IMG/VR virus record: IMGVR_UViG_2531839449_000046
Reading direction: 5' to 3' (one strand)
From: a virus
Taxonomy: Duplodnaviria > Heunggongvirae > Uroviricota > Caudoviricetes
Length of the DNA stretch: 41,869 nt
Shown here piece after piece: positions 15,001 through 18,000 of the stretch (its first letter is position 1; each line of letters begins with the position of its first letter). A program made the position numbers.

Positions 15001-18000
15001 AAGGAAATGTAAATGTTGCAATGAATGGTTTATACCAAAATATCAAAATCAATATTGGTGTAATGAGATTTGTGGAACCAAGATAGCACTCGAACGACGA
15101 AGCAAAGAACGCGAAAAAGCGGAAAAAGCAGCAGAGAAGAAACGACGACGAGAGGAGCAGAAACAGAAAGATAAACTTAAGATTCGAAAACTCGCCTTAA
15201 AGCCCCGCAGTTACTGGATTAAACAAGCCCAACAAGCCGTAAACGCCTTCATCAGAGAAAGAGACCGCGACTTACCATGTATCTCGTGCGGAACGCTCAC
15301 GTCTGCTCAGTGGGATGCCGGACATTACCGGACAACTGCTGCGGCACCTCAACTCCGATTTGATGAACGCAATATTCACAAGCAATGCGTGGTGTGCAAC
15401 CAGCACAAAAGCGGAAATCTCGTTCCGTATCGCGTCGAACTGATTAACCGCATCGGGCAGGAAGCAGTAGACGAAATCGAATCAAACCATAGCCGCCATC
15501 GCTGGACTGTCGAAGAGTGCAAGGCGATCAAGGCAGAGTACCAACAGAAACTCAAAGACCTGCGAAATAGCAGAAGTGAGGCCGCATGACGTTCTCAGTA
15601 AAAACCATTCCAGACATGCTCGTTGAAGCATACGGAAACCAGACAGAAGTAGCACGCAGACTGAAATGTAGTCGCGGTACGGTCAGAAAATACGTTGATG
15701 ATAAAGACGGGAAAATGCACGCCATCGTCAACGACGTTCTCATGGTTCATCGCGGATGGAGTGAAAGAGATGCGCTATTACGAAAAAATTGATGGCAGCA
15801 AATACCGAAATATTTGGGTAGTTGGCGATCTGCACGGATGCTACACGAACCTGATGAAAAAACTGGAGACGATAGGATTCGACACCAAAAAAGACCTGCT
15901 TATCTCGGTGGGCGATTTGGTTGATCGCGGTACAGAGAACGTCGAATGTCTGGAATTAATCACATTCCCCTGGTTCAGAGCTGTACGTGGAAACCATGAG
16001 CAAATGATGATTGATGGCTTATCAGAGCGTGGAAACGTCAATCACTGGCTGCTTAATGGCGGTGGCTGGTTCTTTAATCTCGATTACGACAAAGAAATTC
16101 TGGCTAAAGCTCTTGCCCATAAAGCAGAAGAACTTCCGTTAATCATCGAACTGGTGAGCAAAGATAAAAAATATGTTATCTGCCACGCCGATTATCCCTT
16201 TGACGAATACGAGTTTGGAAAGCCAGTTGATCATCAGCAGGTAATCTGGAACCGCAAACGAATCAGCAACTCACAAGACGGGATCGTGAAAGAAATTAAA
16301 GGCGCGGACACGTTCATCTTTGGTCATACGCCAGCAGTGAAACCACTCAAATTTGCCAACCAGATGTATATCGATACCGGCGCAGTGTTCTGCGGAAATC
16401 TCACATTGATTCAGGTACAGGGAGAAGGCGCGTGGGCATAAGAGAACTAAACCTCACCAAAGAACAGCATGAGTGGCTGAATGGCTGGCTTGAACTGTGG
16501 GGCGCATGGGTTTATTCAGGTCGTCTGGAAAAGCGTATGAGCAGCGTAATAGCGAAGTTCATGGAGAGCGTAGAGCCGGGAAGAGTTATGACAAGGCCAA
16601 TGTGTAATGATGATGATGGAATGTTGATTTCTCAGGTCGTCGATTCCGTCATGTACATTGACAAGAGAGCCTTTGGCATCCTCCTCAGCTACTACGCTCA
16701 TGGTTCATCTAAGCGAGCAATTGCATCCTACTATCACGCGACTGCAAAGCCACGCAAGATGTGTGGGCGTAGTGGCGAGGGATGGAGAAAACCTTCAATG
16801 GCAACCTGTAGAAACGAAATTGACGACATCCTGAAAGCGTCGTTATTTGTTTTGTACCAGCCAATGCAAAATGCTTTCAAAATGCGTAAACGTGTTGAGA
16901 AAGTTAAGCATGTTGCTGTTAAAAGCCTTGACATGCAATTATCCATTTAGCCATAATTAGAAGGTAAGCTGCCGTTAGTGACTCTTAAGTTGCAACGGTG
17001 GCTTTTTTTATTTGGGTCAGTCGTATAAAGGTCATTACGGAAGGCTGTTAACCTTCTTATCGTGGTTCGAGTCCACGCTGTCCCGCCAAATATGCTGGTT
17101 TAGCTCCAATGGTAGAGCAGTCGCCTTGTAAGCGAATGGGTAGCGGTTCAAGTCCGTTAACCAGCACCATAACTGAGCCGTAGCCACTGGCTATCCTGAA
17201 CTCATCAGTGATAGTTACGCTGCGGCCTTCTACACATGATCTTCGTGAAAGCGGGTGGCAGGAGGCTGCGCTAACAACCTCCTGCCGTTTTGCCCGTGCA
17301 TATCGGTCACGAACAAATCTGATTACTAAACACAGTAGCCTGGATTTGTTCTATCAGTAATCGACCTTATTCCTAATTAAATAGAGCAAATCCCCTTATT
17401 GGGGGTAAGACATGAAGATGCCAGAAAAACATGACCTGTTAGCCGCCATTCTCGCGGCAAAGGAACAAGGCATCGGGGCAATCCTTGCGTTTGCAATGGC
17501 GTACCTTCGCGGCAGATATAATGGCGGTGCGTTTACAAAAACAGTAATCGACGCAACGATGTGCGCCATTATCGCCTGGTTCATTCGTGACCTTCTCGAC
17601 TTCGCCGGACTAAGTAGCAATCTCGCTTATATAACGAGCGTGTTCATCGGCTACATCGGTACTGACTCGATTGGTTCGCTTATCAAACGCTTCGCTGCTA
17701 AAAAAGCCGGAGTAGAAGATGGTGGAAATCAATAATCAACGTAAGGCGTTCCTCGATATGCTGGCGTGGTCGGAGGGAACTGATAACGGACGTCAGAAAA
17801 CCAGAAATCATGGTTATGACGTCATTGTAGGCGGAGAGCTATTTACCGATTACTCCGATCACCCTCGCAAACTGGTCACGCTAAACCCAAAACTCAAATC
17901 AACAGCCGCTGGACGTTACCAGCTTCTTTCCCGTTGGTGGGATGTCTACCGTAATCAGCTTGGCCTGAAAGACTTCTCTCCAAAAAGCCAGGACGCTGTT

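What the first reader, a model, noticed from the sequence alone, without database searches (positions are those of the whole stretch)
16928..17293. Two tRNA-like genes between pR' and holin S, bracketed by terminator hairpins
Manual folding gives a canonical 76-nt tRNA with anticodon UGU (Thr) at 17094-17169 and a weaker cloverleaf with anticodon GUU (Asn) at 17014-17088. Both encode CCA and sit in the Q-dependent late leader, where lambdoid phages often carry codon-supplementing tRNAs. A T7-tailed hairpin precedes them and a 9-bp-stem terminator follows, so their expression would depend on Q antitermination. The Asn-like gene has two stem mismatches and may be degenerate.
Basis: seen in the sequence. 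Interest (0 to 1): 0.45.

Follow-up and report, generated by a model that had tools for sequence, protein, structure and literature searches.

The report
Phage 21-type tRNA-Asn/tRNA-Thr late-leader genes
These are two genuine, already well-known phage tRNA genes (Asn-GUU and Thr-UGU, identical to those of coliphage 21) sitting just after the late-promoter terminator of a P22-like phage, and the Thr one has been shown elsewhere to replace a host tRNA that a rival prophage's defence nuclease destroys.

Summary
ARAGORN calls tRNA-Asn(GUU) at 17014-17088 and tRNA-Thr(UGU) at 17094-17169. Rfam's tRNA model scores them 55.3 and 61.5 bits against a threshold of 29. Both encode CCA. They lie 4 nt after the tR' hairpin with its T7 run, downstream of the pR' promoter and a Q21-family antiterminator gene, and upstream of lambda-type S, R and Rz.

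Both tRNAs are 100% identical to those of coliphage 21. The same pair is annotated in Sf6, SfI, BTP1, SPN9CC and many others. It occurs in 369 of 5426 complete E. coli genomes, so the feature is already known.

That gene is invariant across diverged phages, shows compensatory changes in a Klebsiella variant, and keeps the anticodon and G73.

On function, ACA (3x) and AAU (2x) are enriched in the late genes, but AGG, AGA and AUA are enriched more and have no phage tRNA. Both tRNAs keep the host anticodon loop (7/7) and have rewritten anticodon stems. These stems lack the motifs cut by the Toprim nucleases P2-Old and PARIS AriB. Phage 21's tRNA-Thr was shown in 2025 to resist and suppress P2-Old. 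The best reading is nuclease-resistant replacement tRNAs, with codon supply as a secondary benefit.

The parts
16432..16950 (+). Late-gene antiterminator Q of the phage 21 / P22 gp23 family (172 aa)
   Evidence: ORF. It is 83% identical over 162 aa to phage 21 Q. Homologous genes are annotated as Q in Sf6 and HK75.
16928..16957 (+). Late promoter pR' (TTGACA-18-CATAAT). The inferred transcription start is near 16964.
   Evidence: The promoter scan gives 11 of 12 matches. The same position is annotated as pR' in Sf6 and HK75. The start site is inferred by alignment to the annotated phage 21 start site.
16938..16953 (+). Putative Q-binding element: the direct repeat ATTATCCA/TTTAGCCA between -35 and -10 (inferred)
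   Evidence: It occupies the position of the annotated phage 21 QBE (ATTGAGCA/AATGAGCA) in alignment A2. The sequence differs from phage 21. Function was not tested.
16965..16971 (+). Sigma-dependent pause element TAAGCTG (inferred by identity to phage 21)
   Evidence: It is identical to the annotated SDPE of phage 21.
16966..17009 (+). tR' intrinsic terminator: hairpin 16966-17004 with T7 run 17003-17009
   Evidence: Fold of -20.2 kcal/mol, z -4.4. The sequence is identical to the terminator annotated in phage 21 (PMID 1704887) and to those annotated in Sf6 and HK75.
17014..17088 (+). tRNA-Asn (anticodon GUU), 75 nt, CCA encoded, G73 discriminator, 4-nt variable loop, U4*U69 and U13*U22 mismatches
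   Evidence: ARAGORN and Rfam at 55.3 bits. It is 100% identical to phage 21 tRNA-Asn. Numbering is and covariation.
17094..17169 (+). tRNA-Thr (anticodon UGU), 76 nt, CCA encoded, G1-C72 and C2-G71, A73, G27*A43 mismatch
   Evidence: ARAGORN and Rfam at 61.5 bits. It is 100% identical to phage 21 tRNA-Thr, the 'tRNAThr21' of PMC12445682.
17177..17226 (+). Long conserved leader hairpin directly 3' of tRNA-Thr. It is the first element of the lambda-type leader.
   Evidence: Fold of 17170-17260 gives -31.8 kcal/mol, z -3.0. It is conserved in Sf6, HK75, HK446 and phage 21, and lambda aligns from 17171 onward.
17257..17292 (+). 9-bp GC-rich stem (GGCAGGAGG/CCTCCTGCC) with a 12-nt loop and a GTTTTG tail. 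It is terminator-like and part of the lambda-type leader.
   Evidence: Fold. It is conserved in lambda (equivalent to about 45031-45066), HK75, HK446 and Sf6. The terminator scan did not call it.
17412..17735 (+). Holin/antiholin S (lambda type), the first late gene, followed by R 17719-18195 and Rz 18192-18629
   Evidence: ORFs. Pfam Phage_holin_3_1 and Phage_lysis are among the window proteins. Homologues are annotated in Sf6, HK75 and HK446.

Best explanation
[quoted passage not shown] They are carried as a portable 160-nt cassette in the late leader of a P22-like temperate phage.

Expression. The genes have no promoter of their own and start 4 nt after the tR' T-run. They should therefore be transcribed only when RNA polymerase from pR' has been made terminator-resistant by Q. 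N-modified polymerase arriving from pR could also transcribe them. The leader would then be cut by host RNase P and 3' trimming enzymes, releasing two CCA-ended tRNAs as late-protein synthesis begins. All of these steps are inferred from lambda and phage 21 biology.

Main function. [quoted passage not shown] The host versions are cut in the anticodon stem by Toprim defence nucleases carried by competing prophages and satellites (P2 Old; PARIS AriB). The phage versions keep the host anticodon loop and the synthetase identity elements. Their anticodon stems are rewritten so that the nuclease motifs are gone. This keeps ACA and AAY codons readable.

Status of the evidence. Resistance to and rescue from P2-Old have been shown experimentally for the identical Thr sequence. 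For Asn, and for AriB, they are inferred.

Secondary benefit. Extra supply for ACA, which is three times more frequent in the late genes than in the host sample and is read by a low-abundance host tRNA, is a compatible added advantage.
For: Gene identity:
- ARAGORN and Rfam both call the two tRNAs.
- They are 100% identical to the annotated phage 21 tRNAs.
- Close variants show compensatory changes: Thr 3-70 and 6-67; Asn 6-67, 7-66 and 28-42.

Placement:
- pR', the pause element and tR' are identical or homologous to the annotated phage 21 elements.
- Only 4 nt separate the T-run from tRNA-Asn.
- The only other promoter-like site on the + strand in 16000-18200 is a weak 9/12 match inside Q.
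- HK446 carries the same cassette right after a lambda-type Q, pR' and 6S-type terminator. The cassette therefore sits just after the late-leader terminator in both Q/pR' contexts examined.

Anti-nuclease reading:
- The anticodon loops are 7/7 identical to host thrU and asnT. The anticodon stems are only 2/10 and 3/10 identical.
- Thr has U28-A42 and a G27*A43 mismatch. These are the 'C28U/G42A' substitution and 'shorter anticodon stem' described for tRNAThr21.
- Per PMC12445682, tRNAThr21 resisted purified P2-Old and raised survival of Old+Gam+ cells.
- Host thrU and asnT carry CNG at positions 28-30 and 40-42. Both phage tRNAs lack it on both strands.
- AriB cuts U36AAUC|A41, and U39->A abolishes cleavage while A41->C inhibits it (PMC12409363). 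The phage tRNAs read UAAGCG (Thr) and UAACCU (Asn), so both differ at positions 39 and 41.
- Thr(UGU) and Asn(GUU), together with Lys(UUU), are the AriB targets. Asn(GUU) is also a slower P2-Old substrate.
- The Asn+Thr pairing recurs in unrelated phages: P1, an N4-like phage and Klebsiella lambdoid phages.

Codon supply:
- ACA is 16.2 per 1000 in late genes against 5.4 per 1000 in a 14.5k-codon E. coli K-12 sample (p 2e-12). AAU is enriched 2x.
- The SfI paper reports the same ACA bias.
Against: - This phage carries P22 Abc2 rather than lambda Gam. PMC12445682 reports that Abc2 did not trigger P2-Old toxicity. P2-Old may therefore not be the relevant pressure for this particular phage.
- The phage has no tRNA-Lys(UUU), which was required to escape the B185 PARIS system. 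The pair alone would not neutralise that system.
- The Klebsiella variant of tRNA-Asn has regained CNG on both strands, and P1's tRNA-Thr keeps CNG and a full 5-bp stem. Motif avoidance is therefore not universal.
- Q-dependent timing means the tRNAs appear late, whereas Old is triggered early.
- Nobody, in the papers read here, has tested tRNA-Asn21 against any nuclease.
- Expression and processing in this phage were not measured.
Confidence: 0.6

Rival explanations
1. Codon supplementation is the main function. The tRNAs raise the supply of decoders for ACA and AAU/AAC, which the late structural genes use more heavily than host genes do. This speeds late-protein synthesis whether or not any defence system is present.
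For: - Late genes have ACA at 16.2 per 1000 against 5.4 per 1000 in the host sample. ACA makes up 28% of Thr codons against 10%. AAU is enriched 2x and total Asn 1.5x.
- The host has only thrU to read ACA, and the P2-Old paper describes it as of low abundance.
- The same argument was made for SfI (17.3% against 7.1% ACA).
- The timing of expression matches late-gene translation.
Against: - AGG (5.9x), AGA (5.7x), AUA (3.8x) and UCA (3.1x) are more enriched than ACA, and GGA (2.95x) about as much. None has a phage tRNA here.
- Asn(GUU) is not a scarce host tRNA, since E. coli K-12 has four asn genes (established knowledge). The SfI authors found no Asn codon bias and called its role unclear.
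- Supplementation does not explain why the anticodon stems are almost entirely rewritten while the loops are kept.
Confidence: 0.25
2. The genes are hitchhiking or decaying relics. The cassette is carried along with the mosaic Q-lysis module, has little or no current function in this phage, and tRNA-Asn is a pseudogene.
For: - Asn has two stem mismatches, U4*U69 and U13*U22.
- Thr has C at position 14, where A is nearly universal.
- The Thr gene has visibly decayed in phage L and ST64T and is chimeric in JLK-2012, so loss does happen.
- HK75 and lambda do without the cassette.
Against: - Both genes are 100% identical to phage 21's, and Asn is invariant in six otherwise diverged leaders.
- Compensatory changes are seen in variants.
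- The U4*U69 mismatch is conserved in the Klebsiella variant, so it is not random damage.
- Scores are far above the tRNA threshold.
- The identical Thr sequence decodes ACA and rescues cells in vivo.
- The cassette is present in 369 of 5426 complete E. coli genomes.
Confidence: 0.08
3. The tRNAs provide self-immunity. The phage encodes its own tRNA-cleaving toxin or defence nuclease, and the resistant tRNAs protect its own lytic cycle.
For: Prophages do carry anticodon nucleases, for example HepS in Gifsy-1 and Old in P2. Resistant tRNAs would in principle allow self-compatibility.
Against: A PADLOC scan of 49 window proteins found only HNH homing endonucleases and Dam-type methyltransferases. 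It found no OLD, PARIS, HEPN, PrrC or retron components. Pfam shows ordinary P22-like content. Small or novel proteins were not excluded.
Confidence: 0.03
4. The tRNA sequences act mainly as DNA or RNA landmarks. They could be recombination hot spots that define a mosaic boundary, or RNase P processing sites that separate the leader from the S mRNA. In this reading they are not primarily decoders.
For: - The cassette boundaries coincide exactly with mosaic junctions: upstream at the tR' T-run and downstream 1-2 nt after CCA.
- Different fillings occupy the same slot. HK75 has a 205-nt segment with a tRNA/tmRNA-like 3' end. Other phages have extra Phe, Gly or Arg tRNAs there.
- JLK-2012's Thr looks recombined with a host-like thrU.
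Against: This does not explain the retained anticodons, the identity elements and encoded CCA, or the demonstrated decoding activity of tRNAThr21. It is compatible with, and secondary to, a decoding function.
Confidence: 0.04

Closest known systems
Coliphage 21 late-leader tRNA-Asn and tRNA-Thr (OL657228; late regulatory region of Guo, Kainz & Roberts 1991, PMID 1704887)
   Same: Both tRNA sequences are 100% identical. The pause element, tR' terminator and 4-nt spacing are identical. The order is the same: Q, pR', tR', Asn, Thr, then the lysis genes.
   Different: Q is only 83% identical. The repeat between -35 and -10 is ATTATCCA/TTTAGCCA rather than the Q21 binding element ATTGAGCA/AATGAGCA. 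The downstream leader and lysis genes are lambda-type (S, R, Rz) rather than the phage 21 pinholin and SAR endolysin.
Shigella phage Sf6 (AF547987) and other P22-like phages (BTP1, SPN9CC, CurroJimenez_Bas106)
   Same: The whole 521-bp leader is 97.7-99% identical and carries the same annotated promoter, qut site, terminator, tRNA-Asn and tRNA-Thr. The virion and early genes are P22-like in both.
   Different: There are a few point differences in the leader, for example T6 against T7 in the terminator tail. The IS insertions are at different places.
Nuclease-resistant phage tRNAs that bypass Toprim tRNases: T5 tRNA-Lys/Thr/Asn against PARIS AriB, and phage tRNA-Thr(UGU) against P2-Old
   Same: The anticodons (UGU, GUU) match two of the targeted host tRNAs. 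The host-type anticodon loop is kept. There are substitutions at or next to the cleavage sites (positions 28, 39, 41, 42 and the 27-43 pair). The identical Thr sequence was itself tested against P2-Old.
   Different: This is a temperate phage with only two tRNAs and no tRNA-Lys. Expression is tied to late antitermination, whereas T5's tRNAs come in large clusters. Asn has not been tested against any nuclease. This phage carries Abc2, which did not trigger Old.
Stx-phage ileZ-argN-argO tRNA cluster downstream of Q (933W-type lambdoid phages)
   Same: Both are tRNA genes placed in the Q-dependent late leader of a lambdoid phage upstream of the late genes. This rests on established knowledge and on reference B28.
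   Different: Those tRNAs read the rare codons AUA, AGA and AGG, which fits codon supplementation. The present phage also over-uses those codons (3.8-5.9x) but carries Asn and Thr instead.

Membership tests
tRNA (Rfam RF00005 / canonical cloverleaf) | Covariance-model score above the curated threshold, plus an independent tRNA-finder call | tested here: met
   55.3 bits (Asn) and 61.5 bits (Thr) against a gathering score of 29. ARAGORN calls both.
tRNA (Rfam RF00005 / canonical cloverleaf) | Base pairs maintained by compensatory substitutions among relatives | tested here: met
   8 of 20 pairs (Thr set) and 12 of 20 pairs (Asn set) show double changes. Within the close family these are Thr 3-70 and 6-67, and Asn 6-67, 7-66 and 28-42. 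Samples are small (7 sequences each) and include non-orthologous tRNAs.
tRNA (Rfam RF00005 / canonical cloverleaf) | Synthetase identity elements (E. coli rules, from established knowledge): Thr needs G1-C72, C2-G71, G35 and U36; Asn needs the GUU anticodon and G73 | tested here: met
   Thr has G1-C72, C2-G71, anticodon UGU and A73. Asn has anticodon GUU and G73. Aminoacylation itself was not tested.
tRNA (Rfam RF00005 / canonical cloverleaf) | Mature, aminoacylated RNA is produced | not testable with these tools
   This needs northern blotting or tRNA-seq. For the identical Thr sequence, in vivo rescue of ACA decoding was reported when the tRNA was supplied experimentally (PMC12445682).
Phage 21-type late-leader tRNA cassette | Sequence identity to phage 21 tRNA-Asn and tRNA-Thr | tested here: met
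   Exact string match of both genes to OL657228.
Phage 21-type late-leader tRNA cassette | Position directly after the Q-dependent terminator tR', downstream of pR' and a Q gene | tested here: met
   The terminator sequence is identical to phage 21's.
Phage 21-type late-leader tRNA cassette | Q-dependent read-through of tR' into the tRNAs | not testable with these tools
   Inferred from homology to the phage 21 system (annotation citing PMID 1704887). The Q protein and putative QBE differ from phage 21.
Nuclease-resistant replacement tRNAs (anti-Old / anti-PARIS) | Same anticodon as a host tRNA targeted by the nuclease | tested here: met
   UGU and GUU match thrU and asnT. Both are published targets of AriB, and thrU is the main target of P2-Old.
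Nuclease-resistant replacement tRNAs (anti-Old / anti-PARIS) | Altered cleavage motif: CNG at 28-30 and 40-42 plus stem length for Old; U39 and A41 around the 40|41 cut for AriB | tested here: met
   Thr reads UCG and CGA, so no CNG, has the G27*A43 mismatch, and reads UAAGCG at 36-41. Asn reads AAG and CUU, so no CNG, and reads UAACCU at 36-41. The Asn stem is not shortened.
Nuclease-resistant replacement tRNAs (anti-Old / anti-PARIS) | Demonstrated resistance to cleavage and rescue of infection or viability | not testable with these tools
   Published for the identical Thr sequence against P2-Old. No test of Asn21, and no test of either tRNA against AriB, was found in the papers read here.
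Codon-supplementing phage tRNAs | Cognate codons over-represented in phage late genes relative to the host | tested here: met
   ACA is enriched 3.0x (p 2e-12), AAU 2.0x and total Asn 1.5x. The host baseline is a 41-gene sample of K-12.
Codon-supplementing phage tRNAs | The phage tRNA set covers the codons with the largest phage-to-host excess | tested here: not met
   AGG, AGA, AUA and UCA rank above ACA and have no phage tRNA.

The most novel reading that the evidence does not exclude
The Asn(GUU)+Thr(UGU) pair may be a dedicated two-part counter-defence module against Toprim (OLD/PARIS-family) anticodon-stem nucleases. On this reading tRNA-Asn21, whose role has been called unclear, is itself nuclease-resistant. 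The short slot between tR' and the conserved late leader would be a plug-in site where temperate phages swap anti-defence tRNA sets. Examples of such sets are Asn-Thr, Asn-Phe-Thr(-Arg), Asn-Thr-Gly, and the non-tRNA filler in HK75 and lambda. The same pairing in P1 and N4-like phages would then reflect the same pressure.
Probability: 0.4. Interest if true: 0.4.

Novelty: already known. Interest (0 to 1): 0.15.

Why it matters
As a genome feature this is routine. The pair is annotated by standard pipelines, and it has been described in the literature for phage 21, Sf6, SfI and ST64T.

Its present value is as a worked example. A temperate phage's 'codon-supplement' tRNAs are better explained as cleavage-resistant replacements for host tRNAs attacked by rival prophages' nucleases.

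The one open point with some value is the Asn tRNA. It is more strictly conserved than Thr, and it survives in phage L where Thr has decayed. No test of it against any nuclease turned up in the papers read here. A simple cleavage and rescue experiment would settle whether it is the second half of an anti-Toprim module.

Tried and rejected
1. The simple terminator scan called neither hairpin. Folding with shuffles and identity to annotated terminators were used instead.
2. I looked for tRNA-like remnants in the equivalent slot of lambda and HK75. ARAGORN found none. Rfam at a permissive threshold found only a sub-threshold tmRNA/tRNA-like 3' fragment in HK75 (20 bits against 47) and nothing in lambda.
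3. I searched the window for lambda Gam, Bet, Exo, Kil and cIII by tblastn to see whether this phage would trigger P2-Old. There were no hits. Pfam instead shows P22 Abc2 and ERF.
4. I tested the self-immunity idea with PADLOC on 49 window proteins. No tRNA nuclease or defence system was found.
5. I tried to get the tRNAThr21 sequence from the supplements of PMC12445682, but none are held. Identity was established from the phage 21 genome record instead.
6. I considered that the two inverted IS copies might have inverted the late region. This was rejected because the gene order is the normal P22-like order.
7. The first literature search on Sf6, tRNA-Asn and tRNA-Thr returned mostly mitochondrial genome papers. 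Only the SfI paper was useful.
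Full report
**1. Observation**

- ARAGORN finds exactly two tRNA genes in the 41.9-kb window: tRNA-Asn (anticodon GTT) at 17014-17088 and tRNA-Thr (TGT) at 17094-17169, both on the + strand.
- Rfam's tRNA covariance model scores them 55.3 bits (E 2.2e-9) and 61.5 bits (E 4.5e-11) against a gathering score of 29.
- Both end in an encoded CCA.
- Standard numbering confirms two mismatches in Asn (U4*U69, U13*U22) and one in Thr (G27*A43).
- Upstream, TTGACA-18-CATAAT at 16928-16957 matches 11 of 12 consensus positions.
- A hairpin at 16966-17004 runs into seven T's at 17003-17009 (-20.2 kcal/mol, z -4.4). 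tRNA-Asn begins 4 nt after that T-run.
- Downstream lie a long hairpin at 17177-17226 and the 9-bp stem GGCAGGAGG/CCTCCTGCC at 17257-17286 with a GTTTTG tail. The simple terminator scan called neither flanking hairpin.

**2. Context**

The ORF at 16432-16950 is a Q antiterminator, 83% identical to phage 21 Q. Lambda-type S (17412-17735), R and Rz follow.

Pfam hits across 49 window ORFs show a P22-like temperate podovirus. They include P22 portal, coat, gp7, injectosome proteins, Sf6-type small terminase, the tailspike head-binding domain, ERF, P22 Abc2 anti-RecBCD, N, CII and NinG.

**3. Relatives**

The 521-bp leader is 97.7-99% identical to Escherichia phage CurroJimenez_Bas106, HF4s, vB_EcoP-720R6 and Shigella phage Sf6, and 97-98.2% identical over 95% of its length to BTP1, SPN9CC and others. 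In many of these records the same two tRNAs are annotated.
- Sf6's record annotates the promoter, qut site, terminator tR', tRNA-Asn and tRNA-Thr, each noted as 'similar to phage 21'.
- The phage 21 genome record annotates pR', the Q-binding element, the sigma-dependent pause element, the terminator (PMID 1704887) and then tRNA-Asn and tRNA-Thr.
- Both window tRNAs are exact string matches to the phage 21 genes. The pause element and terminator are identical in the alignment.
- The cassette occurs in 369 of 5426 complete E. coli genomes, annotated as tRNA-Thr and tRNA-Asn in the records listed.
- The SfI genome paper already describes this tandem pair downstream of Q in SfI, Sf6, ST64T, PS3 and p21 (PMC3636060).

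The feature is therefore already known.

**4. The cassette is a portable module in a variable slot**
- HK75 has the same Q, pR', tR' and downstream leader. A different ~205-nt segment sits exactly where the tRNAs are. It contains no callable tRNA, only a sub-threshold tmRNA/tRNA-like 3' end.
- HK446 has a lambda-type Q, a lambda-type pR' and about 190 nt of 6S-type leader. The identical two tRNAs start right after that terminator's T-run.
- Lambda aligns with the window only from 17171 onward, which is lambda 44945-45194. Both downstream hairpins therefore belong to the lambda-type leader and not to the tRNA cassette.
- Other phages have Asn-Thr-Gly (JLK-2012), Asn-Phe-Thr (Tbat2_3) or Asn-Phe-Thr-Arg (Klebsiella phi6.1) in the same place.

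**5. Are both genes functional?**

The evidence points the other way.
- Asn is invariant in phage 21, Sf6, phage L, JLK-2012 and HK446, while neighbouring sequence diverges.
- In phage L and ST64T the Thr gene has suffered a deletion and is no longer called, yet Asn remains intact.
- The Klebsiella variant of Asn has compensatory double changes at 6-67, 7-66 and 28-42 and keeps the U4*U69 mismatch. Oslo converts that mismatch to U*G.
- For Thr, the pairs 3-70 and 6-67 covary.
- Alignment folds show 8 of 20 (Thr) and 12 of 20 (Asn) pairs with double changes. These are small samples that include non-orthologous tRNAs.
- Identity elements known from E. coli are retained. Thr has G1-C72, C2-G71, G35 and U36. 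Asn has GUU and G73 (the rules are from established knowledge).
- One oddity: Thr has C at position 14, where A is nearly universal. This is conserved in its close relatives.

**6. What are they for?**

*Codon supply.* In 17 late genes (5619 codons) ACA is 16.2 per 1000, against 5.4 per 1000 in 41 E. coli K-12 genes (14,526 codons). That is a 3.0-fold excess (p 2e-12). AAU is enriched 2.0-fold and total Asn 1.5-fold. However, AGG (5.9x), AGA (5.7x), AUA (3.8x) and UCA (3.1x) are enriched more, and the phage carries no tRNA for them. The SfI authors likewise found an ACA bias but no Asn bias.

*Nuclease resistance.* Compared with host thrU and asnT (fetched), the phage tRNAs keep the anticodon loop 7/7. 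Their anticodon stems share only 2/10 and 3/10 positions with the host. Two recent papers bear on this.
- P2-Old kills cells during P2-lambda interference by cutting the anticodon stem of thrU after C in paired CNG motifs at 28-30 and 40-42. Phage tRNA-Thr(UGU) variants resist this and rescue the cells. Phage 21's tRNA-Thr ('tRNAThr21') protected cells and resisted purified Old, owing to a shorter anticodon stem and the C28U/G42A change (PMC12445682).
- The window's Thr is that sequence. It has U28-A42 and G27*A43, and CNG is absent on both strands.
[quoted passage not shown] U39->A abolishes cleavage and A41->C inhibits it. T5's Lys, Thr and Asn variants together neutralise PARIS (PMC12409363).
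- The window tRNAs read UAAGCG (Thr) and UAACCU (Asn) at 36-41, so both are changed at 39 and 41. Asn also lacks the host's CNG motifs.
- The Asn+Thr pairing recurs in P1 (adjacent), an N4-like phage and Klebsiella lambdoid phages.

*Caveats.*
- This phage has Abc2, not Gam, and Abc2 did not trigger Old.
- It has no tRNA-Lys, so it would not by itself defeat the B185 PARIS system.
- The Klebsiella Asn variant and P1's Thr retain CNG.
- I found no published test of Asn21 against any nuclease.
- PADLOC found no tRNA nuclease in the window itself, which argues against a self-immunity role.

**7. Mechanism proposed**

*Shown here:* the gene identity, the placement, the sequence differences from the host tRNAs, and the codon statistics.

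*Shown in the literature for the identical Thr sequence:* resistance to P2-Old and rescue of cells.

*Inferred:*
- Transcription starts near 16964, judged by alignment to the annotated phage 21 start site.
- About 46 nt are made and terminated at tR' unless Q has modified the polymerase at the promoter-proximal pause. N-modified polymerase from pR may also read through.
- RNase P and 3' exonucleases release the two tRNAs, which are separated by a 5-nt spacer.
- The tRNAs then sustain ACA and AAY decoding during late-protein synthesis, particularly when the host versions have been cleaved.

**8. Verdict**

The identification as two tRNA genes in the Q-dependent leader is correct. 'Asn degenerate' is not supported. 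'Codon-supplementing' is at best a partial explanation. The downstream '9-bp terminator' belongs to the conserved lambda-type leader.

The feature is already known, so interest is low. The one open point is whether tRNA-Asn21 is also a nuclease-resistant replacement.

Noticed in passing
window 10846-12155 (-) and 35201-36510 (+): Two 100%-identical 1310-nt IS3-family insertion sequences lie in inverted orientation. Each has orfA/orfB and an ALIL frameshift pseudoknot. They bracket the 23-kb nin-Q-tRNA-lysis-head region. The gene order is still the normal P22-like order, so no inversion is visible. The length fits IS629, but that is from memory only and was not tested.
   Followed up: partly
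window 37643-37710 (-) and 37645-38646 (+): A full-length sar antisense RNA (95.6 bits) overlaps the start of a P22-type antirepressor ORF (Pfam P22_AR_N/C among the window proteins). This is a P22-like immI region.
   Followed up: no
window 16934-16971: Q is 83% identical to phage 21 Q. The repeat between -35 and -10 is ATTATCCA/TTTAGCCA in place of the Q21 binding element ATTGAGCA/AATGAGCA. The pause element TAAGCTG and tR' are identical to phage 21. This suggests a Q21-family variant with a different DNA specificity. Sf6 has ATTAGCCA/TTTAGCCA.
   Followed up: partly
L002 (HK75) 1610-1815, equivalent to window 17010-17170: HK75 shares Q, pR', tR' and the downstream leader. A different ~205-nt segment fills the tRNA slot. 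It ends in a T-arm/acceptor-like fragment (GCCGGTTCGATTCCGGCCGCCACAACC) that scores 20 bits on Rfam tmRNA, below threshold. It may be a remnant of another tRNA-like gene.
   Followed up: partly
L010 (phage L) 867-938; L011 (JLK-2012) 829-904: In phage L and ST64T the Thr gene has a deletion. It is annotated as 'tRNA-Leu (TAA)' but ARAGORN does not call it, while Asn is intact. In JLK-2012 the Thr gene is a chimera. Its 5' half is phage-type, and its anticodon and T arms are host-thrU-like, with a 3-bp anticodon stem. A tRNA-Gly(UCC) follows it.
   Followed up: partly
window 17107 (tRNA-Thr position 14): tRNA-Thr has C at position 14 (D-loop CAAUGGUA), where A14 is nearly universal. The same C is found in the Tbat2_3, Klebsiella phi6.1 and Oslo homologues. 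It is absent from P1, the N4-like phage and host thrU.
   Followed up: no
window 17177-17226; L009 (phage 21) about 1113-1175: A long conserved hairpin lies directly 3' of tRNA-Thr. In phage 21 it is followed by CTTCTTTTTTT, which is terminator-like. In the window and in lambda it is followed by CTTCTACACAT. It may be a terminator in phage 21 and only a processing or stability element here.
   Followed up: no
window 14446-15012 and one other ORF: Two ORFs match HNH_3 and PADLOC homing-endonuclease models. The one at 14446-15012 lies in the nin region and overlaps the start of NinG. A Dam-type methyltransferase is also present.
   Followed up: no
L014 (P1) 525-678; L015 (N4-like 3HA13) 237-486; L013 (Klebsiella phi6.1) 401-720: [quoted passage not shown] All the phage Thr(UGU) genes examined have G39 where host thrU has U39.
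   Followed up: partly
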